UHGV virus genome: UHGV-0387053
DNA from: a virus
Length of the DNA: 23,009 nt
Strand: one strand, 5' to 3'
Position numbers and translations under genes: made by a program. The notes beneath the pieces were generated by a model. The model worked only from the letters and a program-made list of their open reading frames with translations. It had not been told where the DNA came from and ran no database searches. Shown piece after piece: positions 2,411 to 23,009 of the stretch. Position 1 is the stretch's first letter; each line of letters begins with the position of its first letter.

Positions 2411-2741
2411 ATCAGCAGCAGAGCGCAAAGCCGCTCAGAGAGCCAGACAAGCTGAATCCGGTGTGCGTAAGCTGGAAATTGTGCTTGATGCTCAGGAAAT
2501 TGAAATGCTGGAGCGTAACTGTGCCACGCGTCGCCCCGGGCGTGTGCCTTACGAATTTGGTGAGTATATTGCGTTACTTATCCGCCAGGATGATGCTCGC
2601 GTGCACGGGCGTATAAAATCGATCAGCAGAAAACGTTGCGGTAAGTGCGGCGAGATAGTTCCTGTGAATTCATGCCCGTGTAATGGTGACTCGCAATGCT
2701 GGGTGACCAAAGGCTGGCATGAAACGAAATTAATAGTGTGA
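2403..2741 (+). CDS. Small putative DNA-binding protein: RHH-like N-terminal region plus C-terminal Cys-rich zinc-ribbon-like motif
   Basis: ATG 2403 overlaps the previous stop by 8 nt. Residues KLEIVLDAQEIEMLER...YEFGEYIALLIRQ fit a strand-helix-helix pattern; C-terminus has CGKCGEIVPVNSCPCNGDSQC. Stop TGA 2739-2741 lies inside the palindrome GTGACATGTCAC. Confidence 0.55.
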   Translation: MAKSAAERKAAQRARQAESGVRKLEIVLDAQEIEMLERNCATRRPGRVPYEFGEYIALLIRQDDARVHGRIKSISRKRCGKCGEIVPVNSCPCNGDSQCWVTKGWHETKLIV

Positions 2742-2749
2742 CATGTCAC
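2738..2749. promoter_or_regulatory. 12-bp perfect palindrome GTGACATGTCAC (copy 1), candidate operator or recombination site
   Basis: Read directly from sequence; an identical 12-mer recurs at 22760-22771. Overlaps the stop codon of the 2403-2741 gene and lies about 110 bp upstream of terminase small subunit. Confidence 0.5.
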
Positions 2750-2822: not shown

Positions 2823-2852
2823 TACTATTACCACAACGGTAACTATTACCAC
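2823..2852. repeat. Two direct copies of ACTATTACCAC 18 bp apart, between the hairpin and the terminase small subunit start
   Basis: 11-mer at 2824-2834 and 2842-2852, seen in sequence. Could be terminase or regulator recognition repeats; function unknown. Confidence 0.4.
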
Positions 2853-2859
2853 GGTGGTT

Positions 2860-4922: not shown

Positions 4923-4925
4923 TTT

Positions 4926-5774: not shown

Positions 5775-5809
5775 GATTATACCTTTAAGGTAATTTGTGG
5801 TCATCAGGC

Positions 5810-5835
5810 AAAAAAAATGCCCGGACGAACCGGGC
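5810..5835 (-). terminator. Intrinsic terminator for minus-strand transcription, downstream of the tRNA
   Basis: Plus strand reads AAAAAAAA-tgc-CCGG-acgaa-CCGGGC, so the minus-strand RNA is GCCCGG-uucgu-CCGGGC followed by a run of eight U. Confidence 0.6.
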
Positions 5836-5998
5836 GAACTGGAAGCAATGAGTTCTGCCTTCCGTGGCTGTACGGGTTTACAGCATGAAGTCATCGCAAT
5901 GGCGTCCTGCTGTAAAAAGGGCGGTGATAGTCCTTCAAGGGAAACCATCACCGCCAAGCACCTGGAACTTCTGGCATCACGGTCCTTAGGCGTGATTC

Positions 5999-6075
5999 TG
6001 GCGTGGCATGAAGGATTCGAACCTCCGACCAACCGCTTAGAAGGCGGTTGCTCTGTCCAACTGAGCTAATGCCAC
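5999..6075 (-). tRNA. tRNA-Arg (anticodon UCU)
   Basis: Minus-strand sequence GTGGCATTAGCTCAGTTGGACAGAGCAACCGCCTTCTAAGCGGTTGGTCGGAGGTTCGAATCCTTCATGCCACGCCA folds by hand into a cloverleaf: 7-bp acceptor stem, D arm GCTC/GAGC, anticodon stem ACCGC/GCGGT with loop CTTCTAA (U33, anticodon TCT, A37), T arm GGAGG-TTCGAAT-CCTTC, discriminator G and CCA end. Confidence 0.85.
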
Positions 6076-6502
6076 AACGCTGAGAGCACTTAGCCTGTTA
6101 AGGCGCCACACTTTGTCGCGGCTCCATAAATGCTCTCATCGTTGTACCCTCGTCTCTTCCGAGGCGTCACACCGAATCGCCGGGATGGTGAATCCCCGTG
6201 CGCGGAATAAAACCGCTCGACTTGCACATTCCGGCTACCTGGTTCGTTTGCCCGAGCAAGGGAGGGTGCCCCTTAAACATATCCAGACCGCTATCGGCGC
6301 ATGTGCCATACGCCGTACTGCTCAAAATAAAAGCTCACTCCACCTGTTCAATTTAACGACAAGCCAGTCAGGTTAATAACCGGAATGAACTCTTTGCTTA
6401 CCTTAAAGGTAATAATTCGTGCGTTAAATGTCAACTATCTACGATAAATAAATCATATGTGGTTAAATTGGTAATAATCTAATTGCGTACGGAGTCATTG
6501 AT

Positions 6503-6709
6503 ATGTGCATGGGTAGCTCACCATCAGTGCCTGCAACACCAGAAGTTCAGGCAGCACCACAGGAGCAGGATGCCGCTGTTGTTGATGCCCGCGACGAAGA
6601 AACACGTCGCCGTCGCGCTGCTGCTGGTCGTAGTTCTACGCTGCTTACCGGTTCTCAGGGCGACACATCAACCGCTAATACCAGCGGTAAAACGCTACTT
6701 GGTCAGTAA
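6503..6709 (+). CDS. Small virion protein, T7 gp7.3-like
   Basis: 68 aa, GGAG upstream. PEVQAAPQEQDAAVVDARDEETRRRRAAAGRSS resembles, from memory, T7 gp7.3 (...EVPQAAAQIVDVPEKE...ESGRKKARAGGKK...); it lies directly upstream of the portal gene as in T7. Confidence 0.6.
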   Translation: MCMGSSPSVPATPEVQAAPQEQDAAVVDARDEETRRRRAAAGRSSTLLTGSQGDTSTANTSGKTLLGQ

Positions 6710-6723
6710 CCGGAGTCATTGAA

Positions 6724-9394: not shown

Positions 9395-9408
9395 GAGAGG
9401 AAATGACA

Positions 9409-10395
9409 ATGGCTGTTAAAGGCTTAACTGCGCTAACGATGGCTGACTGGGGTAAGCGCGTCGATCCAAACGGGAAAGTCGATAAGATTATCGAGCTTCT
9501 CGGTCAAACTAACCCGATCCTTCAGGATATGCCTTTTGTCGAAGGGAACCTTCCTACCGGACACCGAACCACCATTCGTTCTGGTTTACCTTCAGCTACC
9601 TGGCGTTTGCTGAACTATGGCGTACAGCCAAGCAAATCAACCACAGTGCAGGTAACCGATTACGTTGGCATGCTGGAAACCTATGCTGAAGTCGATAAGT
9701 CACTGGCTGATCTGAACGGCAATACCGCTGAATTCCGCCTGTCTGAAGACCGCGCATTTATTGAAGCGATGAATCAGCAGATGGCGCAGACGCTGTTTTA
9801 TGGTGATTCCAGCGTTAACCCTCAGCAGTTTATGGGACTGTCCTCCCGCTATTCCAGCCTGTCTGCGGGTAATGCTCAGAACATCATTGATGCTGGTGGC
9901 ACGGGTACAGATAACACCTCAATCTGGTTAGTGGTGTGGGGCGAAAACACCGTGCATGGCATCTTCCCGAAAGGGCAGAAGGCTGGCATCCAGATGGAAG
10001 ATAAAGGCCAGGTGACACTGGAAGATGCTAATGGCGGCAAGTACGAAGGCTATCGCACCCATTACAAATGGGACAACGGACTTGCTCTGCGTGACTGGCG
10101 TTATGTTGTTCGCATTGCAAACATCGATGTCAGCAATTTTTCAGAACCTTCCTCTGCCGCAAATATTGCGAAGTTGATGGTTAAAGCACTGCATCGCATT
10201 CCAAACCGTGGAATGGGCCGCCCGGTGTTCTACATGAACCGCACTGTAGGCCAGGCTCTTGATCTGCAATCTCTGGAGAAAACATCTCTGGCTATCAGCG
10301 TAAAAGAGACTGAAGGCGAGTGGTGGACTTCATTCCGTGGTGTACCAATCCGTGAAACTGATGCGCTTCTGGAAACAGAAGCCCGCGTGGTGTAA
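9409..10395 (+). CDS. Major capsid protein (by position and size)
   Basis: 329 aa; GAGAGG upstream of ATG 9409 (ATG 9403 is also possible). Follows the scaffold gene; family not recognised with certainty. Confidence 0.7.
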   Translation: MAVKGLTALTMADWGKRVDPNGKVDKIIELLGQTNPILQDMPFVEGNLPTGHRTTIRSGLPSATWRLLNYGVQPSKSTTVQVTDYVGMLETYAEVDKSLADLNGNTAEFRLSEDRAFIEAMNQQMAQTLFYGDSSVNPQQFMGLSSRYSSLSAGNAQNIIDAGGTGTDNTSIWLVVWGENTVHGIFPKGQKAGIQMEDKGQVTLEDANGGKYEGYRTHYKWDNGLALRDWRYVVRIANIDVSNFSEPSSAANIAKLMVKALHRIPNRGMGRPVFYMNRTVGQALDLQSLEKTSLAISVKETEGEWWTSFRGVPIRETDALLETEARVV

Positions 10396-11604: not shown

Positions 11605-12209
11605 TGGCCTCTGTAGTAGAGATCTGTAATCGTGCGCTGTCCAATATTGGCAACAGCCGCAGCATTAACAGCCTGACGGAAGCCAGCAAGGAAGCGGGGG
11701 AATGTTCGCTGCACTTTGAGGCCTGTCGTGATGCTGTGCTTTCTGATTTTGACTGGAACTTTGCTACCAAACGCGTGTCGCTTGCAGATACGAGCAATCC
11801 ACCGCCTGACTGGGAATATGCGTATCAGTACCCGTCCGATTGTCTGCGCATTACTGAAATTATGCTCCCTGGTGTACGTAATCCAACAGCAGCAACGCGT
11901 GTTCAGTACGAAGTAGGAGCAGACACCAACGGAACAGGAAAATTGATCTACACAGACCAGCCGCAGGCATGGCTCAAGTATGTCTCTCGCGTTTCAGATG
12001 TAAACATGTTTGATGCCATTTTTATGGAGGCGCTGGCCTGGCGTCTTGCGGCAGCCATTAACATGGCGCTGACTGGGAATGCGGATCTCGGTACATTTGC
12101 TCTCAATATGTACAATCGTGTGATTCTTAGTGCTGGCTCGCATAGCCAGAATGAATCACAGGAACCACAGCCTCCGGTTGACGAGTTTACCATTGCGAGG
12201 TTGTCCTGA
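11604..12209 (+). CDS. Tail tubular protein A-like (T7 gp11-like adaptor)
   Basis: 201 aa (T7 gp11 is about 196 aa). N-terminal NRALSNIGNSRSINSL ... DWNF resembles, from memory, T7 gp11 NDILASIGEPPVSTL ... GWTF; GGAGG upstream. Confidence 0.7.
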   Translation: MASVVEICNRALSNIGNSRSINSLTEASKEAGECSLHFEACRDAVLSDFDWNFATKRVSLADTSNPPPDWEYAYQYPSDCLRITEIMLPGVRNPTAATRVQYEVGADTNGTGKLIYTDQPQAWLKYVSRVSDVNMFDAIFMEALAWRLAAAINMALTGNADLGTFALNMYNRVILSAGSHSQNESQEPQPPVDEFTIARLS

Positions 12210-14680
12210 TGGCTATCAGTTGGATCCAGCCAAGCTTTGCCGGTGGTGAGATTGGACCGTCGTTGTACGGTCGTATCGACATGGCGAAGTACCAGGTGGC
12301 ATTGCGCAAGTGCGATAACTTTATCGTGCGGCAGTATGGCGGCGTTGAGAATCGACCTGGTACGCGTTTTGTCGGTGCCGCCAAATACCCAAATCGGAAA
12401 TGCCGCCTGATCCCGTTCCAGTTCTCGACGGTTCAGACCTATGCTCTGGAGTTCGGACACCAGTACATGCGCGTTATCAAAGATGGTGCGTTGGTGCTGA
12501 ACAGCAGCAATGTTATTTATGAAATTGCCACGCCATATACTGAAGCCGATCTGTTCCGAATTAAATTCACGCAAAGCGCAGACGTGCTTACGCTGGTTCA
12601 TCCGGCATACCCGCCGAAAGAGTTGCGTCGCTATGCGCATGACAACTGGCAACTGGTTGATGTGGTAACGAAGAACGGGCCATTTGAAGATATCAATATT
12701 GACGAGTCAGTGACGGTTTATGCCAGCGCCAGCACCGGGACAATTACGTTAACGGCAAGCGCCTCTATTTTTGGCGCGGAGCAGGTAGGCAAATTGTTCT
12801 ATCTGGAACAGCCTGCAGTGGATTCTGTGCCGGTATGGGAAACCAGTAAGAGTACGTCGATTGGCGATATTCGCCGTGCAGACAGTAACTACTATCGCGC
12901 CGTTACAGCAGGCAAAACAGGTACTTTGCGCCCTTCGCATACAGAAGGCACATCATGGGATGGCTGGGGCGGATCCGGTGATGATGATACTGGCATTGAG
13001 TGGGAATATCTGCACAGTGGTTTTGGCATTGCCCGTATCACTGCTGCAAATGGCACTACTGCAACTGCTGAGGTGATTTCCTATATCCCTTCGCAGGTCG
13101 TTGGCGAGGATAATGCCAGCTATAAATGGGCTAAATATGCCTGGAACAGTGTTAATGGTTATCCTGGCACTGTTGTTTATTATCAACAACGTCTTTACTT
13201 CGCCGCATCGACAGCGTTCCCTCAGACTATCTGGGCCAGCCGTACTGGGGATTATAAGGATTTTGGCAAAAGCAATCCTACGCAGGATGACGACAGAATT
13301 ATCTACACCTATGCCGGGCGTCAGGTTAATGAGATCCGCCACCTGATTGATGTCGGTTCGCTGGTGGCACTGACTTCCGGAGGTGAGTACGTCATCACCG
13401 GTGACCAGAACAAAGTGTTAACCCCATCATCATTTGCATTCAGCTCTCAGGGATCAAATGGCTCAAGCAACGTCCCACCAATTGCTGTGGCGAATATTGC
13501 TCTGTTCGTCCAGGAGAAAGGCAGTGTTGTCCGTGATCTGGCCTACTCATTCGATGTTGATGGCTATCAGGGGAACGACCTGACCATCCTTGCCAATCAT
13601 CTTTTTCAGAAGCACAGCATTGTTGACTGGTGCTTCTCTATTGTCCCTTACTCCAGCGCCTTCTGCATTCGTGATGACGGTAAATTACTGGTGATGACCT
13701 ATTTGCGTGATCAGCAGGTTTTTGCATGGGCACCACAATCCAGTACCGGAAAATATGAAAGTACATGCAGTATCAGCGAAGGCAATGAAGATGCGGTGTA
13801 TTTCGTCGTTAACCGAACCGTTAACGGGCAAAGAGTGAGATACATCGAGCGACTGTCCAGCCGTTTATTTACCAGCGATGAAGATGCTTTCTTTGTTGAT
13901 TCTGGCCTTAGCTATGATGGAAGAAATACGTCTGACAGAACGATGACCATCACTGGTGGTTCTGGCGAATGGGATTACCGCGCGGAATATACAATCAGTG
14001 TTTCTGGTGGTGCGTACTTCACCAGTAGTGATGTTGGTGCGCAACTACAGTTCCCTTATACCGGAGCTGGTCCTGATACTGGCTATGAAGTGTCAAAAGA
14101 ATTACGTTGCGACATTATTTCTGTAACCAGCAATACCGCAGTAGTGGTTCGTGCTAACAGGAACGTCCCGCCATCCCTCAGGAATGTGGCCACCACGAAC
14201 TGGCAGATGGCGCGCCGGACATTTGGCGGCTTGTCTCATCTTGAAGGCCAGACCGTAAACATCCTCTCTGATGCGAACGTGGAACCACAAAAAGTGGTTT
14301 CCGGAGGTGCCGTCACGCTGGAATCACCGGGGGCTGTTGTGCACATCGGCCTGCCAATAACTGCTGAATTCGAAACACTGGATATCAACATTAACGGACA
14401 GGAAACGCTGCTGGACAAAAAACAGGTGATCCCGTCCGTTACTCTGGTTGTGAATGCCAGTCGCGGCATCTGGGCGACTACGCCCGGCGGTAAATGGTAC
14501 GAATATCCACAGCGTGAATTCGAGTTCTACGATGATCCTGTTGATGATGCTACCGGAAAAGTAGAAGTGAAACTGGACAGTAACTGGGGCAAAAACGGGC
14601 GTGTAAAAATCCGTCAGCTTGACCCGTTGCCGCTGTCTGTTCTTGCCGTTATTCCTCGCCTTACTGTTGGGGGATTCTGA
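12209..14680 (+). CDS. Tail tubular protein B-like (T7 gp12-like nozzle)
   Basis: 823 aa (T7 gp12 is about 794 aa); start overlaps the upstream stop (TGATG); position immediately after the gp11-like gene. Confidence 0.7.
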   Translation: MAISWIQPSFAGGEIGPSLYGRIDMAKYQVALRKCDNFIVRQYGGVENRPGTRFVGAAKYPNRKCRLIPFQFSTVQTYALEFGHQYMRVIKDGALVLNSSNVIYEIATPYTEADLFRIKFTQSADVLTLVHPAYPPKELRRYAHDNWQLVDVVTKNGPFEDINIDESVTVYASASTGTITLTASASIFGAEQVGKLFYLEQPAVDSVPVWETSKSTSIGDIRRADSNYYRAVTAGKTGTLRPSHTEGTSWDGWGGSGDDDTGIEWEYLHSGFGIARITAANGTTATAEVISYIPSQVVGEDNASYKWAKYAWNSVNGYPGTVVYYQQRLYFAASTAFPQTIWASRTGDYKDFGKSNPTQDDDRIIYTYAGRQVNEIRHLIDVGSLVALTSGGEYVITGDQNKVLTPSSFAFSSQGSNGSSNVPPIAVANIALFVQEKGSVVRDLAYSFDVDGYQGNDLTILANHLFQKHSIVDWCFSIVPYSSAFCIRDDGKLLVMTYLRDQQVFAWAPQSSTGKYESTCSISEGNEDAVYFVVNRTVNGQRVRYIERLSSRLFTSDEDAFFVDSGLSYDGRNTSDRTMTITGGSGEWDYRAEYTISVSGGAYFTSSDVGAQLQFPYTGAGPDTGYEVSKELRCDIISVTSNTAVVVRANRNVPPSLRNVATTNWQMARRTFGGLSHLEGQTVNILSDANVEPQKVVSGGAVTLESPGAVVHIGLPITAEFETLDININGQETLLDKKQVIPSVTLVVNASRGIWATTPGGKWYEYPQREFEFYDDPVDDATGKVEVKLDSNWGKNGRVKIRQLDPLPLSVLAVIPRLTVGGF

Positions 14681-15144
14681 TGATCGATGTTCAAATTATT
14701 CCCGCTACCGAAGAGCATCTTCAGATGATTTTGCCGGATGTTCGTCAGGCTGATATTGACGAACTGTATGCGGTATCGCTGATGACTACCGAAGATGCGC
14801 TGCGCGTTGGTCTTCGCACTGCGACTATGGCCTGGTCAGGGTTCGCGAACGGAGAACTGGTAACCATGTTTGGTGTATCTCCGGCGTCAATGATCGGTGG
14901 CAATGGTACGCCCTGGCTGGTAGGAACCAGCCGTATTGAAAAATATCAGAAGACATTTCTGCGCCACTGCCGCCCTGTATTGCAGCAGATGCTGGCAGTT
15001 TATCCGCGCCTGGAAAACTACGTCGACGAGCGAAACCATGTTGCCAAAGCATGGCTGCACTGGCTTGGATTCAGGCTTGAAGAAGCCGCGCCTTATGGTG
15101 CTCTTGGTCTTAATTTCCACAGATTTCACATGGAGAGAAAATAA
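14680..15144 (+). CDS. Internal virion protein, gp13-position
   Basis: 154 aa, translationally coupled (TGATG); assignment by synteny only. Confidence 0.55.
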   Translation: MIDVQIIPATEEHLQMILPDVRQADIDELYAVSLMTTEDALRVGLRTATMAWSGFANGELVTMFGVSPASMIGGNGTPWLVGTSRIEKYQKTFLRHCRPVLQQMLAVYPRLENYVDERNHVAKAWLHWLGFRLEEAAPYGALGLNFHRFHMERK

Positions 15145-15719
15145 TGTGCGATCCGGTTATTGCTGGTGGCGCAATGCTCGCCATGAGTGGCATTCAGGCA
15201 TACACCCAGTACCAACAGGGAAAGTATGCCTCGAAGGTTGCAGAAGCGAACGCAGATATAGCCACAGCTCAGGCAAATGATGCAATAAACAGAGGTAACG
15301 CTGAAGCTGAGCAACGACGCAGAGAGACCCGACAGCGGCTTGGTACACAGGCGGCGACAATGGGGGCTACCGGCGCTGATTTATCTACAGGTAACGCGCT
15401 GGATATATTTGGCGACACTGCCCAGTTTGGCGCTCTTGATTCGCTGACGACGGTGAATAACGCGCAACGCGAGGCTTACGGTTATCAGGTTCAGGCTGCC
15501 AACTATAAAGCAGAAGCCAGTTCAGCCCGTAAACAGGGGAATGTGGGAGCAGCAACAACATTGCTCACTGCGCCTCTGAAGGCATACGGTGCGTACCAGA
15601 TGTTTGGTGGGACGTGGAGTCCGTTCTCTAAAGGAAGTACATCTAGTGGTGGGACGCCAATGTTATCTAACTCAGGTTTTATGAATTCTGACTCCCGATT
15701 CAAAATAGGAGGTTACTGA
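15144..15719 (+). CDS. Internal virion/ejection protein, T7 gp14-like
   Basis: 191 aa (T7 gp14 is about 196 aa); begins MC followed by a hydrophobic stretch; Ala/Gln-rich like gp14; coupled start TAATG. Confidence 0.65.
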   Translation: MCDPVIAGGAMLAMSGIQAYTQYQQGKYASKVAEANADIATAQANDAINRGNAEAEQRRRETRQRLGTQAATMGATGADLSTGNALDIFGDTAQFGALDSLTTVNNAQREAYGYQVQAANYKAEASSARKQGNVGAATTLLTAPLKAYGAYQMFGGTWSPFSKGSTSSGGTPMLSNSGFMNSDSRFKIGGY

Positions 15720-18466
15720 TGCCTGTTGTTCCTACTACATCCGGACGCCAGGTGCAAAGTCGTGGTGTGCAAACCGGTGGTTTTCAGATCTTCGATGTTC
15801 CTCAAGCAGGTCAGGTGCTGGCGAATGTCGCAGATCAGTATGCGGTGGCATATGGTGAAGCCAGGCAGAAAGCGAATGTTGCTATGGCCCAGGAGGCGTT
15901 ACTGCAATTTAACCAATTTGCAGATGACCAGATTAACAACCCTGAAAGTGGGCTGATTTCTAAACAGGGTAAAAACGCTCTTGGTCAGAGTGACGCTGTT
16001 ATGAAAAATATGCAGGAAAGGGCTCAGGCATTATTAGGCTCAATTCCTGAAAGTGAGGAAAGGAATAAATTATCCTTTCAACTCCAGCAGTCTATGCAGT
16101 CTTATTACAATCAGGCACGTCGATATGAAGTTGGGCAGTTTCAGCAATTCCAAGATCAAACGTATTTGTCAGGAAATGCATTGGCTGTCACTCAGTCTGC
16201 GGGGCTATATAGCGATAACCAAGCATTTGTCGATTTAGCCAAGCAGCGATTTGAATCTATTGATCAATACGCTGATGCGCATGGGCTTCCTGATGAGTGG
16301 CGTGTTCAGCAGAAAACTCAGCTCAAGGAACAAATGGGGCAGCAAGCATGGATAGGAAATATCGCTCAAAAATACAACGAGTTTCTTCAGGTTAATGGAG
16401 AGCCAGGGGATCTTGATGGTGTGAGTCGTGCAATATCACATGGTAATTCATTGGATGCTCGTGGTTTACGTAATAATAACCCTGGTAATATTGAAGCGAG
16501 CAAATCTAACCCGTGGGAAGGTCAGATCGGTAGCGATGGACGTTTTGCAACGTTTGCTACCCCTGAGCATGGAATCCGCGCGTTGGGTAAAAATATGTTG
16601 TCTTACCAGCGTCAAGGCTATGACACCGTTAGCGAGATTGTTAATCGCTATGCTCCGGCTAGTGATGGTAATAATACTGATGCTTATATTAGGGAATTGT
16701 GTGGTGAGCTTGGTGTTGGGGAGAATGATCAGCTTGATATCTCTAACCCAAAGACACTAGCTGCTTTATGTGCTGGGATTATTAAACACGAAAATGGCAG
16801 TATGCCTTATAGCACCGAACAGCTTGAAACTGGTATCTCGGCAGCCCTTGGTCTAACTAACCTTGATTCACCTAAGCGTTATACGGGCAATGCGGCATTT
16901 GATGCTATGAGCCCTCAAATGCAAATACAGGCATTGAGGCAGGCTAATGAGCTGAGAAATCAGTACCGCCAGCAGTATGCGGACCAGCTTAGCACCGTAG
17001 TTAAAGATGCATATTCAGCCCTTGATGAAGGATTGAAACCTGAGAAGTTACCTTCTGAGGACGATTTTATCCGGGCCAATGGTCCGCGCATTGGCGCTAT
17101 GAAGTGGAAGGATATGCAGGCGCAGATACAATATGGAGGTGTCATTGGTGCCGCTAAAGACCTCACTCCAGAAGGACGACAAGACATTCTTGAACGTTTA
17201 CGTCCACAGGATCCAAACGCTCCTGGATTTGCAGCTAACCAGCAACGCTGGGAGAAAATGCAGGCCAAATTTAAAGAGATGGATAGGGAGTGGGAGATTC
17301 AGCAGGGAAGAAACAGGTTCGTGTCTTCAATGCAAAATAACTTCCCGCTGGACCCGAACGACAAAAACAATCAGGCAGCGGTAGACCGTTATTTCGCGCA
17401 GGATATCGCGCCTTCGTTTTCCATATCTGATCCGCAGAGCATCAATACACTGGTCACCGTCACAACTAAAAGCGGCATGATACCAACTCAGGTTAAAACA
17501 ATGCTTAACAGTGGAGCAACATCAAGAGATCCTGCGCTGGTTGTCCCGATGGCAAAATTCTACGGTCAGTTATTCGATAATAATCCGGCGGCAGCGGCAA
17601 CACTTGATAAAAGTACGATGGCATTTTACGGCAAGGTTTACGATTATTCCCGCGCTGGCGTGCCGGAGGATAAGGCTGTTGATATGGCTTACAGCCAGGT
17701 GTTCCAACAGGATGACCGAATGAAACAGATGCTTTCCACTGCCATGCGAGACAAAAAATATGTCGCGGCGAGGGCAACTGCTGCACAAAATAACGCCAGC
17801 AGTCTGACTTCCTTTGGTTCGTGGTCTCCGGATATTACCGATCCAGGAAAATCAAATGCGGCCTATCAGCGAGATTACCAGACAATTTACGATGCTAACT
17901 TTGTACAGACAGGTGGCGATGCAGAACAGGCTGAGAAAATGACCAATGCCATGATCAGAACCACCTGGGGAGTTTCTACGGTTAATGGCAAAGCAGAGGT
18001 TATGAAGTATGCACCTGAGGCATTGTACGGAGTAAATAATGGTGCTGGTAACTGGATACAGGGGCAGTGGGAGCAGGAAAAACGCGAGCTTAAATCAAAA
18101 TCCTTTGGCGGTCCTCGCAGTGATACGGACTTAATACTTGTTTCTGATGGCCTTACGGCAAGGGATAGGAGTTATGCTGTTATGGTTTTACAGCCTGACG
18201 CAAACGGAGCGATAGAACCGAGAAATTATATTGGAGAAAATGGTCTCCCTGTTCGTTTCAAGCCGGATCAGCTGACATCTCCAATGTACAGGCAAACCAT
18301 TCAGTTCCAGCAACAACGTGTTGATGAGGCTAGAGTGCGGAGAGAAGGCAATCCGCTGCCGCAGTTCAGCAATAAAGATGGATATACTCCTCCAGATCTG
18401 ACCAAACCATTCGGTTATGGTTCAGCCAATTACCTTCCGAGCAATATATACGCAGGGGGCAAATAA
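15719..18466 (+). CDS. Large internal virion/ejection protein, gp15-position, with a conserved-looking internal motif region
   Basis: 915 aa, coupled start TGATG. Residues about 240-330 read GLRNNNPGNIEASKSNPWEGQIGSDGRFATFATPEHGIRALGKNMLSYQRQGYDTVSEIVNRYAP, which looks like a compact enzymatic or binding domain; its function is not assigned. Confidence 0.7.
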   Translation: MPVVPTTSGRQVQSRGVQTGGFQIFDVPQAGQVLANVADQYAVAYGEARQKANVAMAQEALLQFNQFADDQINNPESGLISKQGKNALGQSDAVMKNMQERAQALLGSIPESEERNKLSFQLQQSMQSYYNQARRYEVGQFQQFQDQTYLSGNALAVTQSAGLYSDNQAFVDLAKQRFESIDQYADAHGLPDEWRVQQKTQLKEQMGQQAWIGNIAQKYNEFLQVNGEPGDLDGVSRAISHGNSLDARGLRNNNPGNIEASKSNPWEGQIGSDGRFATFATPEHGIRALGKNMLSYQRQGYDTVSEIVNRYAPASDGNNTDAYIRELCGELGVGENDQLDISNPKTLAALCAGIIKHENGSMPYSTEQLETGISAALGLTNLDSPKRYTGNAAFDAMSPQMQIQALRQANELRNQYRQQYADQLSTVVKDAYSALDEGLKPEKLPSEDDFIRANGPRIGAMKWKDMQAQIQYGGVIGAAKDLTPEGRQDILERLRPQDPNAPGFAANQQRWEKMQAKFKEMDREWEIQQGRNRFVSSMQNNFPLDPNDKNNQAAVDRYFAQDIAPSFSISDPQSINTLVTVTTKSGMIPTQVKTMLNSGATSRDPALVVPMAKFYGQLFDNNPAAAATLDKSTMAFYGKVYDYSRAGVPEDKAVDMAYSQVFQQDDRMKQMLSTAMRDKKYVAARATAAQNNASSLTSFGSWSPDITDPGKSNAAYQRDYQTIYDANFVQTGGDAEQAEKMTNAMIRTTWGVSTVNGKAEVMKYAPEALYGVNNGAGNWIQGQWEQEKRELKSKSFGGPRSDTDLILVSDGLTARDRSYAVMVLQPDANGAIEPRNYIGENGLPVRFKPDQLTSPMYRQTIQFQQQRVDEARVRREGNPLPQFSNKDGYTPPDLTKPFGYGSANYLPSNIYAGGK

Positions 18467-21400
18467 TGCCGATATATGAACAGGATCCTAAAGAGTTGCT
18501 TGGCGAGGATATTCAGCAAATAGCAGCACCTGATGACAGTAATTTCTATATGGAAACACCTTCTTTGCTTTCTGCTGTGAACCCATTTACCAGTGATCAA
18601 CGCGTTCAAAGGTCTAGACAAGCAGCATTTCGTATAGATAACACGCTGGGTAGCTTTATTGCCAGTGCTCCTTTCAGTCAGTTTGACAGGGTTGAAGGAT
18701 ATAACCCATTTGATAACGATGCAGCAGATATTAAAGGCTATGAAGATTTTGCAGATTCGTTTATCAACTCCGGTTCGCATGAAGAAACAATGGCAATTAA
18801 ACATCGAATCGATAAGCAAAGAACAGATAGAGAATATCTATCTGAAATGGGTGGTGCTGGTACTATTTCAAGCTTAGCAATGGGAATGATAGACCCGGTT
18901 AATGTGGCTGCAATGTTTATCCCTGTAGGGGCGGTAGCGCGTGGAGGAAGTATTGCTGAGACGGCAGGGCGTTTTGCCCTGGCGAATGCTGCTGGTGGGG
19001 GAGTATCAGAAGCCGCATTACAGGCCACTCAGGAAGCTCGCTCACCGATGGAGAGCGTATCGAACGTTGTTGTTGATGCTCTCGTTGGTGGGATCCTTGG
19101 TGCTGGTGCACAGCTACTTGCTGGACCTAGCGCGCGCGAGGCAGTGGTTAACTCAGTAGGTAATCATTTGCGAGGTATGGATTCTCCTCAAAGCATTGGT
19201 GCAGCTCAGGTTTTCAATACCACACTCGATCAGGAACAGCTCGCTGGACTTGGACTTGCTAACAAAACGTTGAGTGTCACTCCTGCTGGCCGCTTGGCTC
19301 AATCACCATCTCTTGTCTCCCGTCAGATTAACCAGCAGCTTGCCGAAAATAACTATTTCTTCGCCAAAAATGATGAGGGGTTGGCTACGTTTACGGCAGT
19401 CGAGACTAAGATTAAGCAATACGACGCCATGCTTTATAAGCAGATGGAAGCCACTCGTGATGCTTACCAGCAGTACAGCAAATCTGTTAGCGCCCGCGGC
19501 GTGAAGAGGATGAACTTTATTGATTTCAATGAAGCTGTTGGCATGGCTATGCGCCGTGGTGATCAGAGTGATATTCCTGAGGTTTCACAAGCAGCCGCCA
19601 GAATCCGCCCCATTTTCGAGACCACAAAAGCCCGTATGCAGGAACTGGGGATCCTTCCTGAGGATATCGATGTCGTGACGGCGAAAAGTTATCTTCCCCG
19701 CATTTATAAGTTCGATAAGATACTTTCCGACCGCACTGAATTCAGAGGGCGAATTGCCAACTGGATACAAGGGATTAGTGCCAAAGGTGCTGACAAAGCA
19801 GGTCAGCGAATTGAAAGGATAAATTCATTGCTAAAAACTGCAGAGGAATCGGCACCGCGCGCTGATGCTCTCGCTAGTGAAATCGCTGAAGCGGAGAAAT
19901 GGTCTGGTAAAAAAATTCTACTCATGGAAGAACTGGATAAACGAAATAAGCTTATATCTCAGGAGACTGACACACAGGCGCGTCTTACAAGAATAGAAAA
20001 AGAGTTGGCCGAGACTTCATCAGAAAAACTTCAGGCAAGAATGATGAAAGAAAGCTCTGACCTTAAAACACGCCTTGATGATATAGCGCAGGCAAAGAGT
20101 GAGCTTCCTGTCTATCAGCGCCATATGGAGTTGCTGGATAATCCACGGAAATATCGTTCTGAGCTTCGCCGACTGCAAAAACGGGCAAATTCAACCACAA
20201 GGCTGAATGCAAGCCGCGAACGAGCACTGAAGCAGATGGAGCCTCTATCCCGAGAGGAAGCAGAGGACGCTGCTGACGAGATCGTGAATAAAATAATAGG
20301 CGCACCTTCCGGGCTTGTACCAGCCGATATTATCCCAGAGAGACTCGTTGGTCGGGCTGGTTTCACTAAAAGCAGAACGCTGCTTATTCCTGATGAGCGT
20401 ATAGAAGATTTTCTTGAATCAGATGTTAACTACATCATGGAAAGTTATCTCCGGCAGGTGGCACCAGAAATTGAGCTGACTGCGCAGTTTGGCCGTAAAG
20501 ATATGGGGGAGCAAATCCGTCAGGTTAGTGAGGAATATACCCGGCTAATAAAAGAGGCTAAAACACCTAAACGACGTGCAGTTCTTGAGAAGCAACGGGA
20601 GGCTGATATTAGGGATATTACGGCTATGCGTGATCGACTGCTTGGTACTTACGGTGCACCTCAAGATCCACGCAGTTTCTTTGTTCGTGCCGGGCGAGTT
20701 GCTAGGAATATTAACTTCCTCCGTTTGCTTGGTGGAATGACTGTCTCCGCTGCAACTGATCTGATGCGACCGATGATGCAGCATGGCCTGAGAAAATCTC
20801 TCGGACCAATGGTAAGCATGCTTAAAAATATGGACTCAGTGAAAATTGCAACCAGGGATTTGCGAGAAATGGCCGTTGGGCTTGATTATGTCCTGTCTAC
20901 GCGTACAAAGGCTATAGCGGATCTTACTGACCCCTATAGCCGGAGAAGCGCCGCTGAGCGAGGTCTGAACTGGATGACGCAGAAATTCGGTAACTGGACG
21001 CTGATGAATCAGTGGAACAGCGCACTTAAATCATGGTCCGGGATGATAGTGCAGTCGAGGATACTTGACGCGGCTCGCCAAGTTTCTGCTGGTGGCACGC
21101 TCTCCAAAAGTGAAATGCGGAAGATGGCACAGGTCGGCATCAATGAAGATGTTCTGCGCCGAATCGGGGAGCAATTCGGGAAGCACGGAGAGGATATGGA
21201 CGGGCTGTTAACCGGGCATAGTCATCTGTGGGATGACCGTTTCGCTAGAGAGATTTTCCAGTCTGCAGTGCTGAAAGATGTAGACTCAGTGATTGTAACG
21301 CCTGGCGTAGGTGATACACCGCTGTTTTTTAGTAAAGAAGGCTGGAAGATGATCACGCAGTTCAAAACGTTTATCTTCGCACAGCATAACAGGGTGCTAG

Positions 21401-21855
21401 TATCTGGTATCCAGCAGGGCGATGCTGCATTCTATCTTGGTGCGCTTGGCACGATTGCGCTTGGCTCAATGGTCTATATGATGAAACAGAAGTTAAGCGG
21501 TCGCGATATCGACTACAGCTGGAATAACCTTGTGAAAGAGGGGATCGACCGGGGCGGAATGCTTGGCTGGCTCTCTGAGCCGCTGAATACCGTTGAGAAC
21601 ATAAGCGGCGGTAGGTTTGGTCTTGGCGCGATGTTTGGTGCGCCTCCGGTATCAAGGTTTCAGAGTCGTAATGCTATTGGTGCTTTACTTGGTCCTACCT
21701 TTGATCTTGGCGGTGATGCCGCGACGGTTGCGAATGGTGTACTTAACGGAGAATTTGACAGCCAGCAAACCCACGCGGTCCGTAAAATGCTACCTTTTCA
21801 GAACCTGTGGGCGATATCACCGTTACTAAATAAAGTTGAAGAGCAGATGAAATAG
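18466..21855 (+). CDS. Largest internal virion/ejection protein, gp16-position
   Basis: 1129 aa, coupled start TAATG; long helical/coiled-coil regions; last gene of the coupled chain. No lytic transglycosylase motif recognised. Confidence 0.7.
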   Translation: MPIYEQDPKELLGEDIQQIAAPDDSNFYMETPSLLSAVNPFTSDQRVQRSRQAAFRIDNTLGSFIASAPFSQFDRVEGYNPFDNDAADIKGYEDFADSFINSGSHEETMAIKHRIDKQRTDREYLSEMGGAGTISSLAMGMIDPVNVAAMFIPVGAVARGGSIAETAGRFALANAAGGGVSEAALQATQEARSPMESVSNVVVDALVGGILGAGAQLLAGPSAREAVVNSVGNHLRGMDSPQSIGAAQVFNTTLDQEQLAGLGLANKTLSVTPAGRLAQSPSLVSRQINQQLAENNYFFAKNDEGLATFTAVETKIKQYDAMLYKQMEATRDAYQQYSKSVSARGVKRMNFIDFNEAVGMAMRRGDQSDIPEVSQAAARIRPIFETTKARMQELGILPEDIDVVTAKSYLPRIYKFDKILSDRTEFRGRIANWIQGISAKGADKAGQRIERINSLLKTAEESAPRADALASEIAEAEKWSGKKILLMEELDKRNKLISQETDTQARLTRIEKELAETSSEKLQARMMKESSDLKTRLDDIAQAKSELPVYQRHMELLDNPRKYRSELRRLQKRANSTTRLNASRERALKQMEPLSREEAEDAADEIVNKIIGAPSGLVPADIIPERLVGRAGFTKSRTLLIPDERIEDFLESDVNYIMESYLRQVAPEIELTAQFGRKDMGEQIRQVSEEYTRLIKEAKTPKRRAVLEKQREADIRDITAMRDRLLGTYGAPQDPRSFFVRAGRVARNINFLRLLGGMTVSAATDLMRPMMQHGLRKSLGPMVSMLKNMDSVKIATRDLREMAVGLDYVLSTRTKAIADLTDPYSRRSAAERGLNWMTQKFGNWTLMNQWNSALKSWSGMIVQSRILDAARQVSAGGTLSKSEMRKMAQVGINEDVLRRIGEQFGKHGEDMDGLLTGHSHLWDDRFAREIFQSAVLKDVDSVIVTPGVGDTPLFFSKEGWKMITQFKTFIFAQHNRVLVSGIQQGDAAFYLGALGTIALGSMVYMMKQKLSGRDIDYSWNNLVKEGIDRGGMLGWLSEPLNTVENISGGRFGLGAMFGAPPVSRFQSRNAIGALLGPTFDLGGDAATVANGVLNGEFDSQQTHAVRKMLPFQNLWAISPLLNKVEEQMK

Positions 21856-22296
21856 CTATTCACAATTAGTGATGGCGTATGTATCAAATATATTGCCATC
21901 ACTAAATACATACCTATATTCAATCTCTCCGCCAAGGTGAATAAATGCTTTCATTTGCCTGTTGGAGCAAATGCTCGATTTTGAATAATTTCGCATTACA
22001 CTCTTTAATTTATTTTCTAAGGTTACATCACCGTTATAAACTTTTGATAAATAGCTGTTGTTGTAATTAAGATGCGCTACAACTAAAAGTTTGTTTAGTA
22101 TTGCATTTATTGAAACAATAGACATATTATCATTCAATTTTATGGGAAGTGACTTTCCTGCTTCTGATGCAATTTTGTTTGCATGTGCACACATATCCTC
22201 ATTTATTAAATTCTTAAAACATATGTCGTTTGCAAACGAAAAAATTGGTAGGATAAACAAAACGGTAGCTGTAATAGCGTGCATCGGCTTAATCAT
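21856..22296 (-). CDS. AT-rich cargo gene: secreted/periplasmic Cys-containing protein
   Basis: Minus-strand ORF; N-terminus MIKPMHAITATVLFILPIFSFA is signal-peptide-like (an alternative start 12 nt downstream is possible); cysteines spread through the mature part; visibly AT-rich; abuts the gp16-like stop. Confidence 0.6.
   Translation of the reverse strand: MIKPMHAITATVLFILPIFSFANDICFKNLINEDMCAHANKIASEAGKSLPIKLNDNMSIVSINAILNKLLVVAHLNYNNSYLSKVYNGDVTLENKLKSVMRNYSKSSICSNRQMKAFIHLGGEIEYRYVFSDGNIFDTYAITNCE
21866..21905. repeat. 11-bp perfect inverted repeat with 18-nt spacer (TTAGTGATGGC ... GCCATCACTAA)
   Basis: Seen in sequence 11 nt after the gp16-like stop, inside the 3' end of the convergent minus-strand gene. 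Operator-like or hairpin; no U-tract. Confidence 0.4.
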
Positions 22297-22308
22297 TAGG
22301 TGACCTTT

Positions 22309-22758
22309 ATGTTCAAGAAGATGATCAACAGATTAATCGGTGGTAAGGAGGTTAGCAATAAAATTCAACCTCTTATCTTTAAGGATAACTTTTCAGCTTT
22401 TGAGTATGCGTGTAAGTATCTTGACACAAGCCTTTCAGCCAATAAACCAATGCCAGCCATCATCATACCTGGTCCAAGTGGGGAACAGCCAGTTTTGCTA
22501 GATTCTGGAAGACAAAGGGCAATGCTGAAGGTGTGCTCAGCTGATGGTGGATTTTTTGTTATTGCCGATTCATCTTACAGCAAAGGACCAAAGCTGAGGA
22601 TTGGTGATCTTGTTGCTTGGTTGCCTGTGAGTTATGCCGAAGAATTAACGGATAAAATAGAAGATCCTCGCTCCGCTATGGTTGGCTTTATATTGGGAAC
22701 CATTCATCCTGAACTAACATCTACTGGCTGGAAGGGTAAAGAAAGATTTCGCAAGTAG
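22309..22758 (+). CDS. Hypothetical cytoplasmic protein, divergent from the secreted-protein gene
   Basis: ATG 22309 after AGGTGA; 149 aa; AT-rich 5' part, more GC-rich 3' part; stop TAG 22756-22758 is followed directly by the palindrome and a terminator. Confidence 0.55.
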   Translation: MFKKMINRLIGGKEVSNKIQPLIFKDNFSAFEYACKYLDTSLSANKPMPAIIIPGPSGEQPVLLDSGRQRAMLKVCSADGGFFVIADSSYSKGPKLRIGDLVAWLPVSYAEELTDKIEDPRSAMVGFILGTIHPELTSTGWKGKERFRK

Positions 22759-22759
22759 C

Positions 22760-22771
22760 GTGACATGTCAC
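22760..22771. promoter_or_regulatory. 12-bp perfect palindrome GTGACATGTCAC (copy 2)
   Basis: Identical to the 2738-2749 copy; again starts within 2 nt of a stop codon and precedes a hairpin/T-tract. Confidence 0.5.
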
Positions 22772-22796
22772 AGGCCGCTTTCGCGGCCTTGTTTTT
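22772..22796 (+). terminator. Intrinsic terminator (AGGCCGC-tttc-GCGGCCT followed by TGTTTTT)
   Basis: 7-bp GC-rich stem, 4-nt loop and T-tract, seen in sequence immediately after the 22309-22758 gene. Confidence 0.7.
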
Positions 22797-22956
22797 AACG
22801 AATGCCACCGCCACCCGGGCGGGAATCCGCAGAACGCCCACCGCAGCGGGAGCCGTCAGCAGCAGTGTCGCTGTCGTGCTGACAACGACCGGCAAAGGCC
22901 TGAGTTGAAGCTACCAGAGACAACAAAACGAACAGTGCAGCAAATGCTTTTTTCAT
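22795..22956 (-). CDS. Possible small secreted peptide (about 53 aa), GC-rich; low confidence
   Basis: Minus-strand ATG at 22956 giving MKKAFAALFVLLSLVASTQAFAG (signal-peptide-like) then a Gly/Arg/Ser/Asp-rich tail with two Cys. Weak RBS; could be non-coding. Confidence 0.3.
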   Translation of the reverse strand: MKKAFAALFVLLSLVASTQAFAGRCQHDSDTAADGSRCGGRSADSRPGGGGIR

Positions 22957-23009
22957 TGTGAAATTTCCATCTATAAGCCACCTCAATGTGGCGTCAATGA
23001 GTGTAGCAC

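What the first reader, a model, noticed from the sequence alone, without database searches (positions are those of the whole stretch)
21850..23009. Tail-fibre gene missing from its expected slot: possible module replacement or prophage truncation
After the gp16-like gene there is no long plus-strand ORF. Instead there is AT-rich cargo, a palindrome, a terminator and a GC-rich segment of different character. Either the fibre gene lies further downstream beyond the cargo, or this is a decayed prophage whose adsorption module was replaced, with 22760-22800 a candidate junction.
Basis: inference. Interest (0 to 1): 0.45.

Follow-up and report, generated by a model that had tools for sequence, protein, structure and literature searches.

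The report
Normal accessory gap before phage tailspike
The "missing" tail-fibre gene is not missing: in this family of E. coli prophages the tailspike gene always sits a few kilobases beyond the DNA-ejection genes, after a variable block of accessory genes, and the window simply ends inside that block.

Summary
The described features are all present. After the gp16-like gene (stop at 21855) come an AT-rich antisense gene (21856-22296), a 149-aa sense gene (22309-22758), the palindrome GTGACATGTCAC (22760-22771), an intrinsic terminator (22772-22797) and a GC-rich antisense mini-gene (22795-22956).

The interpretation rests on a T7 gene-order expectation that does not hold here. The window is an epsilon15/phiV10-like temperate podophage.
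- In phiV10, in phage EC.W1-9 and in 68 of 79 related viral contigs, an epsilon15-type tailspike lies on the structural strand 0.47-6.5 kb (median 3.9 kb) after the gp16-like stop. None lies within 300 nt. The other 11 loci end too early to tell.
- All nine complete E. coli genomes that match the window to its last base carry a tailspike 3.4-4.7 kb after that stop, then lysis genes, the att core and yfgI. One of these tailspikes is interrupted by IS3.
- One further relative (CS5L) really is truncated, but it diverges at position 22833, where the window does not.

The proposed junction is a genuine mosaic boundary, not a prophage end.

Two by-products came out of the work. The antisense gene encodes a periplasmic protein with the AspS/PA3611 fold, and its homologues always abut the gp16-like gene. 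The palindrome is a conserved family-wide motif.

The parts
18466..21855 (+). gp16-like internal virion (ejection) protein gene, 1129 aa; last gene of the head/tail/ejection-protein block
   Evidence: ORF. It matches phrog_342 'internal virion protein with endolysin domain' at E 2.9e-235. The preceding genes hit Pfam T7_gp14 (33.7 bits, cut-off 27) and internal-virion PHROGs. It has the same length and 97-99.9% identity in phage EC.W1-9 and in E. coli prophages.
21856..22296 (-). Antisense accessory gene: a 146-aa Sec-exported periplasmic protein with the AspS/PA3611 fold. It lies tail-to-tail with the gp16-like gene, stop codons abutting, and has GC 0.317.
22297..22308 (.). 12-bp spacer between the two divergent accessory genes; the point where Klebsiella relatives carry an Arc/Arc-like/P22-type antirepressor insertion
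   Evidence: Coordinates. In Klebsiella loci L013-L015 the 146-aa and 149-aa homologues are separated by Arc, Arc and P22_AR_N genes.
22309..22758 (+). 149-aa accessory protein gene (an alternative GTG start at 22300 gives 152 aa). It has no signal peptide and its function is unknown.
   Evidence: Matches phrog_9944 at E 1.5e-92. It belongs to a narrow enterobacterial family with 46 invariant columns. It has no Pfam, PADLOC or PDB sequence match. The AF2 model is poor, pLDDT 55. An AGGTG Shine-Dalgarno sequence lies 6 nt before the ATG.
22760..22771 (.). Perfect 12-bp palindrome GTGACATGTCAC (oriented 14-mer CGTGACATGTCACA at 22759-22772), one base after the stop codon and abutting the terminator; it also marks a mosaic boundary
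   Evidence: Located. It is conserved in phiV10 and the Klebsiella prophages, and is GTGACCAGTCAC in Cedecea. The same 14-mer lies between the stop codon and differing terminator hairpins in IMG/VR; by my reading of that listing, behind at least 16 different genes. As RNA it folds only into a 4-bp hairpin.
22772..22797 (+). Rho-independent terminator ending the structural/ejection-gene transcription unit (stem 22772-22789, loop TTTC, then TGTTTTT)
   Evidence: the centroid structure keeps only this hairpin. It matches, at 95%, the feature annotated as a terminator in phiV10 at 19505-19522.
22795..22956 (-). GC-rich antisense mini-gene for a 53-aa protein with a signal peptide (MKKAFAALFVLLSLVASTQAFA...). 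Its stop codon overlaps the terminator T-tract.
   Evidence: Matches phrog_14503 'membrane associated protein' (moron category) at E 2.3e-40. It is annotated WP_000708858.1 in relatives. tblastn detects it in most related loci, mostly at 75-100% identity and once at 58%. Most of the 506 E. coli records found with the 4.5-kb query probably match only this last ~250 bp; that is my inference.
2738..2749 (.). Second exact copy of the palindrome. It overlaps the TGA stop of the 113-aa zinc-finger regulator gene (2400-2741) and ends 33 nt upstream of terS (2782).
   Evidence: In a set retrieved by protein motifs rather than by the palindrome, 38 of 50 distinct stop-codon contexts of this regulator have the exact palindrome. 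Eight more differ from it by one or two bases, seven of them only in the central two. Three copies are displaced 5-8 nt beyond a TAA stop.

Best explanation
The window is the packaging, head, tail and ejection-protein module of an epsilon15/phiV10-like temperate podophage integrated in E. coli. It ends 1.15 kb into the variable accessory region that, in this phage family, always separates the ejection-protein genes from the tailspike gene.

Shown:
- The long late transcription unit is closed by a conserved palindrome plus intrinsic terminator at 22760-22797.
- Between the gp16-like stop and that terminator is an exchangeable cassette. Here it is an antisense gene for a secreted AspS/PA3611-fold protein plus a sense gene for a 149-aa protein. 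In EC.W1-9 it is a 283-aa gene, and in phiV10 a 46-aa membrane protein.
- Beyond the terminator the relatives carry antisense accessory genes: the 53-aa secreted peptide, YafO-type toxins, DUF4760 proteins, a BRO-N anti-repressor and an epsilon15 gp19-like gene. Then comes the tailspike, with a conserved N-terminal domain and swappable C-terminal enzymatic domains. After it come two holins, an endolysin, an Rz-like gene, the att core and host yfgI.

Inferred:
- The tailspike of this element lies about 2.3-3.6 kb beyond base 23009.
- The antisense 146-aa gene is expressed in the lysogen, when late transcription is off. Its product is exported to the periplasm and stabilised by two disulfides. 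Most likely it acts on the cell envelope as a superinfection-exclusion factor against phages that use related ejection proteins. Its position matches that of sieA in P22.
- The palindrome is a protein-binding site tied to late-transcription control or to cassette exchange.
For: Family assignment:
- Synteny and 97-99.9% identity to phage EC.W1-9 and to E. coli prophages.
- Pfam T7_gp14 and internal-virion PHROG hits.

The architecture is normal for viable phages:
- phiV10 has, in order, the last virion gene, a small ORF, this same terminator, antisense Bro-N and gp19-like genes, then the tail fibre 1.66 kb further on.
- EC.W1-9 has the same layout.

Population evidence:
- In 68 of 79 IMG/VR loci the tailspike N-domain lies on the same strand 470-6503 nt (median 3891) after the gp16-like stop. 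None lies within 300 nt, and no locus with at least 6.6 kb of downstream sequence lacks it.
- 13 of the 14 complete E. coli genomes with this exact cassette have a tailspike.
- All 9 genomes that match the window to base 23009 have one, 3.4-4.7 kb after the stop in the eight where it is uninterrupted.
- The tailspikes share the N-terminal MTVSTEVDHNEYTGNG... domain with phiV10 gp25.
- The att core ATTGAGTGGGAATGATT lies between the Rz-like gene and yfgI in the relatives (core sequence from PMC9782041).

Mosaic junctions lie at 21855/21856, 22757-22770 and 22833.

The BRO-N gene of this region acts as an anti-repressor in the Uetakevirus ZX5 (PMC9782041).

Cargo protein: fold, positional linkage, and rare fusions of family members to LprI lysozyme-inhibitor or Sel1 domains.
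Against: - The DNA downstream of 23009 in the actual source is not available, so presence of the tailspike is inferred from relatives.
- One relative (CS5L) loses the whole right arm just after the terminator. Another has IS3 in the tailspike.
- No sigma-70 consensus promoter was found for the antisense 146-aa gene.
- The proposed functions of the 146-aa and 149-aa proteins rest on fold, position and analogy only. PADLOC, Pfam and BFVD give no significant match.
- The palindrome motif also occurs inside coding sequence in some relatives.
Confidence: 0.88

Rival explanations
1. The prophage is truncated or decayed. The adsorption and lysis arm was lost or replaced, with the break near 22760-22833.
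For: - In strain CS5L, homology stops at window-equivalent 22833. It is followed by 1.6 kb of unrelated, unannotated DNA and then host yqeG-yqeF-kduI.
- In CP074756 the tailspike 5' end is interrupted by IS3.
- Mosaic junctions do cluster here.
Against: - The window continues to match past 22833 to its last base in the nine genomes that all carry tailspike, lysis genes and att core.
- Every structural ORF in the window is full length compared with the viable phage EC.W1-9.
- No locus among the 79 IMG/VR relatives with enough downstream DNA lacks the tailspike.
Confidence: 0.05
2. The cargo is a recent simple insertion into an ancestral T7-like gp16-gp17 junction, so the tailspike was displaced from an originally adjacent slot.
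For: - The cassette is AT-rich.
- It is polymorphic between near-identical phages.
- It is present in only 14 of 5426 complete E. coli genomes.
- A few relatives have the tailspike only 470 nt after the gp16-like stop.
Against: - Even the most compact relatives keep an antisense gp19-like gene between the two, and none has the tailspike within 300 nt.
- The 146-aa gene family sits at this exact position in phages whose gp16-like C-terminal region is only 43-60% identical, so it is old rather than recent.
- The terminator after the ejection genes is conserved in phiV10.
Confidence: 0.05
3. The 146-aa protein is a lysogenic-conversion factor acting on a host secretin or other envelope machine. 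For example, it could be a soluble mimic of the AspS pilotin that binds the GspD S-domain. On this reading it is not a superinfection-exclusion factor aimed at phage ejection proteins.
For: - The closest solved folds are the T2SS pilotin AspS and the periplasmic PA3611.
- AspS binds the secretin S-domain, and PA3611 was proposed to bind secretins in the periplasm (PMC3542185).
- One distant family member gives a weak hit to Pfam T2SSS_2 (E 0.0033).
Against: - There is no lipobox, so it cannot be a Lol-sorted pilotin.
- It has no sequence-level membership of T2SSS_2.
- Every genomic context seen is next to phage ejection genes, never next to a T2SS.
Confidence: 0.15

Closest known systems
Escherichia phage phiV10 and Salmonella phage epsilon15 (genus Uetakevirus), and the viable phage EC.W1-9
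   Same: - Same gene order: terS, terL, portal, protease, capsid, tail, internal virion proteins.
- The same terminator after the last virion gene.
- An antisense Bro-N/gp19-like block, then the tailspike with the same N-terminal domain, then holins, endolysin, Rz, att and integrase.
   Different: - phiV10 has three differently sized internal-protein genes where the window has two (915 and 1129 aa), and only the terminator matches at the DNA level in the last 4.5 kb.
- The cassette between the last virion gene and the terminator differs: a 46-aa protein in phiV10, a 283-aa protein in EC.W1-9, and 146 + 149 aa here.
Phage T7 genes 13-17 (internal core and ejection proteins followed directly by tail fibre gp17)
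   Same: gp13-, gp14-, gp15- and gp16-like proteins occur in the same order. The evidence is a Pfam T7_gp14 hit, a weak Phage_T7_Gp13 hit and the PHROG internal-virion families.
   Different: A terminator and 0.5-6.5 kb of mostly antisense accessory genes intervene. Terminase genes lie at the start of the module, not after the fibre gene.
Phage P22 region between the ejection-protein genes (7, 20, 16) and tailspike gene 9, which holds sieA and immI (mnt, arc, ant). This is from my own knowledge of the P22 map and was not tested here.
   Same: An accessory and regulatory block sits between ejection genes and tailspike. Klebsiella relatives carry Arc, Arc-like and P22_AR_N antirepressor genes exactly between the 146-aa and 149-aa homologues. 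E. coli relatives carry a BRO-N anti-repressor.
   Different: No sequence similarity to SieA was tested or seen. The 146-aa protein is predicted to be a soluble periplasmic protein, whereas SieA is an inner-membrane protein.
AspS (VC1703/YghG) T2SS pilotin and P. aeruginosa PA3611
   Different: Sequence identity is only 15%, and there is no Pfam T2SSS_2 hit. It has an extra N-terminal Cys pair. It is encoded in a prophage next to ejection genes rather than in a T2SS operon. BFVD has no significant viral fold match.
Morons of lambdoid phages (independent promoter-gene-terminator units of deviant GC content). The concept is from my own knowledge.
   Same: Deviant GC (0.32 and 0.69 against 0.49), presence/absence polymorphism between near-identical phages, a terminator at the 3' end, and antisense orientation relative to the late operon.
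   Different: No consensus promoter was detected for the antisense gene. The 146-aa gene is positionally conserved across distant relatives, unlike a sporadic moron.

Membership tests
epsilon15/phiV10-like temperate podophage (Uetakevirus-type architecture) | Structural gene order terS-terL-portal-protease-capsid-tail-internal virion proteins, syntenic with phiV10 | tested here: met
   ORF map, annotation of near-identical prophages and phages, PHROG/Pfam hits.
epsilon15/phiV10-like temperate podophage (Uetakevirus-type architecture) | Tailspike with the epsilon15 gp20-type N-terminal particle-binding domain, downstream of an antisense gp19-like gene | not testable with these tools
   It lies beyond the end of the window. 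It is met in 13 of the 14 E. coli genomes carrying the cassette and in 68 of 79 IMG/VR loci.
epsilon15/phiV10-like temperate podophage (Uetakevirus-type architecture) | Integration at the guaA 3' end with att core ATTGAGTGGGAATGATT | not testable with these tools
   Neither prophage end is in the window. The core lies between the Rz-like gene and yfgI in the relatives (PMC9782041).
epsilon15/phiV10-like temperate podophage (Uetakevirus-type architecture) | Genus-level nucleotide identity to phiV10 or epsilon15 | tested here: inconclusive
   In the last 4.5 kb only 61 nt (the terminator) match phiV10 by megablast. Whole-genome identity was not computed.
T7-type gene order gp16 followed directly by gp17 | Tail fibre gene immediately downstream of the last internal virion gene | tested here: not met
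   None of the 68 relatives has the tailspike within 300 nt; the minimum is 470 nt, with an antisense gene between.
T7 gp14-family internal virion protein | Pfam PF24072 match above the gathering score | tested here: met
   The protein encoded at 15144-15719 scores 33.7 bits against a cut-off of 27.
AspS-type T2SS pilotin (Pfam T2SSS_2) | AspS fold (alpha/beta with a central sheet flanked by helices) | tested here: met
AspS-type T2SS pilotin (Pfam T2SSS_2) | Lipoprotein signal peptide (lipobox with +1 Cys) for Lol sorting | tested here: not met
   The signal sequence ends ...PIFSFA/NDIC with no L-x-x-C lipobox, and the first Cys lies five residues after the end of the hydrophobic segment. Judged by eye; no LipoP-type tool was available.
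AspS-type T2SS pilotin (Pfam T2SSS_2) | Sequence membership of PF16549 | tested here: not met
   No hit at E <= 0.1. One distant family member gives a sub-threshold hit of 17.9 bits against a cut-off of 25.
AspS-type T2SS pilotin (Pfam T2SSS_2) | Encoded with, and binding, a T2SS secretin | tested here: not met
   For the genomic part: all contexts seen are next to phage ejection genes. Binding cannot be tested with these tools.
Moron (independent accessory transcription unit in a prophage) | Deviant base composition and presence/absence polymorphism between close relatives | tested here: met
   GC 0.317 and 0.418 against 0.486. The cassette is replaced in EC.W1-9 and phiV10 and is found in 14 of 5426 complete E. 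coli genomes.
Moron (independent accessory transcription unit in a prophage) | Own promoter and terminator | tested here: inconclusive
   A terminator follows the 149-aa gene. There is no consensus promoter on the - strand for the 146-aa gene, and two weak + strand promoter-like sites are no more than chance.
Known anti-phage defence systems (PADLOC) | Match to a PADLOC-DB model | tested here: not met
   None of the three small proteins gives a hit at E <= 1.

The most novel reading that the evidence does not exclude
Two linked possibilities remain open.

(a) GTGAC-NN-GTCAC may be the recognition site of a phage regulator. The obvious candidate is the 113-aa zinc-finger protein, because the site overlaps its stop codon just upstream of terS. 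The copies wedged between stop codons and terminators of many unrelated accessory genes would then make those terminators regulator-controlled, or would serve as cassette-exchange points. Either way this would be an undescribed family-wide punctuation system in epsilon15-like phages.

(b) The AspS/PA3611-fold periplasmic protein that always abuts the gp16-like gene may be a new type of superinfection-exclusion factor that captures incoming ejection proteins in the periplasm.
Probability: 0.2. Interest if true: 0.55.

Novelty: already known. Interest (0 to 1): 0.2.

Why it matters
For the scan, this is a caution. A gene-order expectation borrowed from T7 does not transfer to epsilon15-like podophages, and a window edge can mimic a missing gene. 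The locus is a standard accessory region present at 99.9% identity in public genomes.

The modest added value has three parts.
- There is now a population-level description of this hotspot: its boundaries, its alternative cassettes, and real but rare truncation and IS events.
- A structural annotation is available for a previously 'hypothetical' prophage protein family that is positionally locked to the ejection genes.
- A strongly conserved palindrome has been identified that could give a handle on the uncharacterised late-gene control of this phage group.

Tried and rejected
Searches that gave nothing:
- Pfam, PADLOC and PDB sequence searches of the 146-, 149- and 53-aa proteins.
- tblastn of the 146-aa protein against 50,697 phage records found nothing. 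The 149-aa protein gave one weak Acinetobacter phage hit.
- Nucleotide search of the cassette in the phage records found nothing.
- Rfam found only the tRNA.
- A scan of species-representative genomes with the family alignment found no relative. A broader 30-sequence alignment was too diverse for that tool.

Tools that failed or were not usable:
- The afdb50 fold library was unavailable.
- BFVD gave no significant viral fold match.
- The AF2 model of the 149-aa protein was too poor (pLDDT 55) to search with.
- The epsilon15 genome paper and the 2026 tailspike preprint could not be opened.
- A full-text search for the palindrome found no paper.

Ideas considered and rejected:
- The palindrome as an RNA hairpin: it forms only 4 bp, and the fold z-score is -1.29.
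- The palindrome as a CRP site: the half-sites resemble TGTGA/TCACA, but the spacing is 4 rather than 6 (my own knowledge).
- The palindrome as a genome end (cos/pac): the phiV10 record starts in the middle of it, but that is simply the base after the stop codon of the last gene.
- The palindrome as a pure coding by-product: three copies lie 5-8 nt beyond a TAA stop.
- That every occurrence of the motif is regulatory: some lie in tailspike and other coding sequence.
Full report
**What the window is**

The ORF map and family searches show a contiguous phage morphogenesis module.
- terS (2782-3456, Pfam Terminase_2) and terL (3453-4922).
- Portal (6724-8403), protease, and major capsid protein (9403-10395).
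- An 823-aa tail protein (12209-14680).
- Four internal virion (ejection) proteins: 14680-15144 (phrog_308), 15144-15719 (Pfam T7_gp14, 33.7 bits against a cut-off of 27), 15719-18466 (915 aa) and 18466-21855 (1129 aa, phrog_342).

The last 4.5 kb is 99.5-99.9% identical to prophages in nine complete E. coli genomes, and it is 97.4% identical, over the 80% that aligns, to the isolated phage EC.W1-9. The annotated relatives are epsilon15/phiV10-type temperate podophages. No complete E. coli genome holds the whole window in one piece. The best matches cover 88-90% at 98-99% identity, which indicates mosaic relatives.

**Check of the observation**

- After the stop codon at 21855 the longest + strand ORF is 152 aa.
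- GC falls to 0.317 in 21856-22296 and rises to 0.689 in 22798-22900, against 0.486 for the structural genes.
- A perfect palindrome GTGACATGTCAC lies at 22760-22771.
- It abuts a canonical intrinsic terminator at 22772-22797.

The sequence holds three real genes.
- 21856-22296 (-) encodes a 146-aa protein (phrog_8772).
- 22309-22758 (+) encodes a 149-aa protein (phrog_9944).
- 22795-22956 (-) encodes a 53-aa signal-peptide protein (phrog_14503, 'moron' category).

All three are annotated as hypothetical proteins in RefSeq relatives.

**Is a tail-fibre gene missing?**

No. The expectation of gp17 directly after gp16 comes from T7 and does not apply to this family.

Viable phages show the same layout as the window.
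- In phiV10 the last virion gene is followed by a 46-aa ORF and then this same terminator (95% identical over 61 nt).
- Antisense Bro-N and epsilon15-gp19-like genes come next.
- Only then comes the tail fibre, followed by holins, endolysin, Rz, attP and integrase.
- Phage EC.W1-9 has the same layout.

I then fetched 79 viral contigs that encode a relative of the gp16-like C-terminus and located the epsilon15-type tailspike N-domain by tblastn.
- It is present on the structural strand in 68 loci, 470-6503 nt (median 3891) after the gp16-like stop.
- No locus has it within 300 nt.
- The 11 loci without it all end less than 4.7 kb after the stop.
- No locus with at least 6.6 kb of downstream sequence lacks it.

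All 14 complete E. coli genomes carrying exactly this cassette were inspected.
- 13 have a tailspike, followed by two holins, a GH19 endolysin, an Rz-like gene and host yfgI. The tailspikes are variously annotated as endosialidase, tail-fibre domain, SGNH hydrolase, GH28-related or beta-helix proteins.
- The att core reported for the Uetakevirus ZX5 lies between the Rz-like gene and yfgI in the relatives fetched before that search (PMC9782041).
- The tailspikes share a conserved N-terminal domain of 115-150 aa with phiV10 gp25 and differ downstream of it.
- For the nine genomes that match the window to base 23009, the tailspike starts 3.4-4.7 kb after the gp16-like stop, which is 2.3-3.6 kb beyond the window. 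In the ninth genome IS3 lies at that point.

**Decay does occur, but not in this configuration**

- In CP074756 an IS3 element interrupts the 5' end of the tailspike.
- In strain CS5L, homology stops at window-equivalent 22833. It is followed by unrelated DNA and then yqeG-yqeF-kduI, so the right arm is absent from that site.
- The window itself continues past 22833 in register with the intact class.

Truncation of the unseen part therefore cannot be excluded, but it is unlikely. I put it at about 5%, with roughly another 10% for an IS-type lesion.

**The junction**

Pairwise comparison and alignment show three boundaries.
- Similarity to EC.W1-9 ends exactly at 21855 and resumes at 22770.
- Similarity to phiV10 resumes at 22757.
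- Two further cassette classes diverge at 22833.

The segment 21856-22757 is an exchangeable cassette. Among the 73 IMG/VR loci with at least 1 kb of downstream sequence, the EC.W1-9 283-aa gene occupies the slot in 26, the 146-aa type in 9, a gp19-like gene sits directly there in 3, and other content fills it in 35.

**The 146-aa antisense gene**

- It has an N-terminal signal sequence and four invariant cysteines.
- AlphaFold2 gives a confident model: pLDDT 82, above 90 from residue 40.
- AspS and PA3611 share a conserved disulfide (PMC3542185). The C110-C145 pair here has a similar spacing.
- Unlike AspS, the protein has no lipobox, and it fails the Pfam T2SSS_2 model. It therefore resembles PA3611 rather than a pilotin.
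- A profile search finds 306 cluster representatives, mostly 140-150 aa. A few are fused to LprI (lysozyme-inhibitor) or Sel1 domains.
- The gene is positionally locked. Its homologues lie convergent to, and within 450 nt of, the gp16-like stop in Escherichia, Klebsiella, Providencia and Cedecea prophages. The same holds in all 14 IMG/VR loci that carry a family member, down to 29% identity.

My inference is that it is a lysogen-expressed periplasmic factor, most plausibly excluding superinfecting phages at the ejection step. P22 sieA lies in the equivalent place; that comparison is from my own knowledge. A role on a host secretin is the main rival.

**The 149-aa gene and the spacer**

- The 149-aa family is narrow and conserved, with no informative match. 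Its structure model is unreliable.
- The two genes are divergent with only 12 bp between their start codons.
- In Klebsiella relatives an Arc/Arc/P22-type antirepressor module is inserted at exactly that point. This underlines the kinship of the region with P22 immI.
- The BRO-N gene further downstream has been shown to act as an anti-repressor in phage ZX5 (PMC9782041).

**The palindrome**

It occurs twice in the window. The second copy (2738-2749) overlaps the TGA stop of a 113-aa zinc-finger 'transcriptional regulator' (phrog_536, the phiV10 p55/epsilon15 gp49 homologue), 33 nt before terS.

I retrieved homologues of this regulator by protein motifs rather than by the palindrome, which gave 50 distinct stop-codon contexts.
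- 38 have the exact 12-mer, three of them displaced 5-8 nt beyond a TAA stop.
- Eight more differ from it by one or two bases, seven of them only in the central two.
- Four lack it.
- The downstream flanks fall into several unrelated classes.

This is the pattern expected of a dimer-binding site GTGAC-NN-GTCAC.

The oriented 14-mer CGTGACATGTCACA also sits between stop codon and terminator in IMG/VR. By my reading of the listing, it follows at least 16 different accessory genes, with at least six different terminator hairpins.

The motif is enriched in the gp16-like loci, with 42 sites against about 1.3 expected. However, many sites are related by descent and some are coding. Its function is untested. 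Control of late transcription or termination, or a cassette-exchange point, are hypotheses.

**Verdict**

- The alarming interpretation is not supported.
- The benign alternative, a fibre gene further downstream, is supported by every informative relative.
- The locus is an ordinary, already sequenced accessory region of an epsilon15-like prophage.
- The fold assignment of the 146-aa protein and the conserved palindrome are minor new leads.

Noticed in passing
window 2738-2749 and 22760-22771; L001 4520, 6785, 7214, 24295: The exact 12-bp palindrome GTGACATGTCAC recurs at the stop codon of the 113-aa zinc-finger regulator gene just upstream of terS, and between the stop codon and terminator of several unrelated accessory genes. 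It is exact in 38 of 50 distinct regulator-gene contexts that were retrieved without using the palindrome.
   Followed up: partly
window 2791-2816: A terminator-like hairpin (gccgcc-aactat-ggcggc followed by TTTATTTT) lies inside the annotated 5' end of terS (TTG start at 2782), about 40 nt after the palindrome. Either the terS start is placed too far upstream, or this is a lambda tR'-like terminator downstream of a late promoter.
   Followed up: no
window 2821-2852: A direct repeat, GGTACTATTACCAC then GGTAACTATTACCAC, with starts 17 nt apart, just after the hairpin near the start of terS. It could be a pac or terminase-binding site, or a regulator-binding site.
   Followed up: no
window 4926-6075: A second cargo slot lies between terL and the portal gene. 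It holds a - strand ORF (368 aa as listed, with PHROG matches only from residue 95; phrog_4780, function unknown) and a tRNA-Arg(TCT) at 5999-6075 (-). Relatives carry different cargo here, namely a Gp49-family gene plus a hypothetical gene, each followed by the palindrome and a terminator.
   Followed up: partly
L396 (NZ_CP158311.1, strain CS5L) 1478-3090: In this relative the prophage breaks at window-equivalent 22833. It continues into 1.6 kb of unannotated DNA with GTTTGCGGGTTAT-type repeats and then host yqeG-yqeF-kduI. The right arm of the prophage has been deleted or moved by a rearrangement.
   Followed up: partly
L007 (NZ_CP074756.1) 4269-8068: An IS3-family element is inserted at the 5' end of the tailspike gene of an otherwise near-identical prophage. 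Related prophages also carry GtrA plus a truncated glycosyltransferase just after the tailspike, a remnant of an O-antigen modification module.
   Followed up: no
L013-L015 (Klebsiella prophages) 6473-7989: A module of Arc, an Arc-like gene and a P22-type antirepressor (P22_AR_N), resembling immI, is inserted exactly in the 12-bp spacer that separates the 146-aa and 149-aa genes in E. coli.
   Followed up: partly
L001 24584-25129; L004 7665-8171 and 10211-10723: YafO-family type II toxin genes, sometimes two per prophage and each with a small upstream partner ORF, and DUF4760 genes alternate in the antisense accessory block between the terminator and the tailspike.
   Followed up: no
P0037, P0055, P0127, P0155 (distant relatives of the 146-aa protein): Some members of the AspS/PA3611-like family are fused to LprI (lysozyme inhibitor) or Sel1-repeat domains. 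This may hint at a periplasmic protein-binding or muramidase-related role.
   Followed up: no
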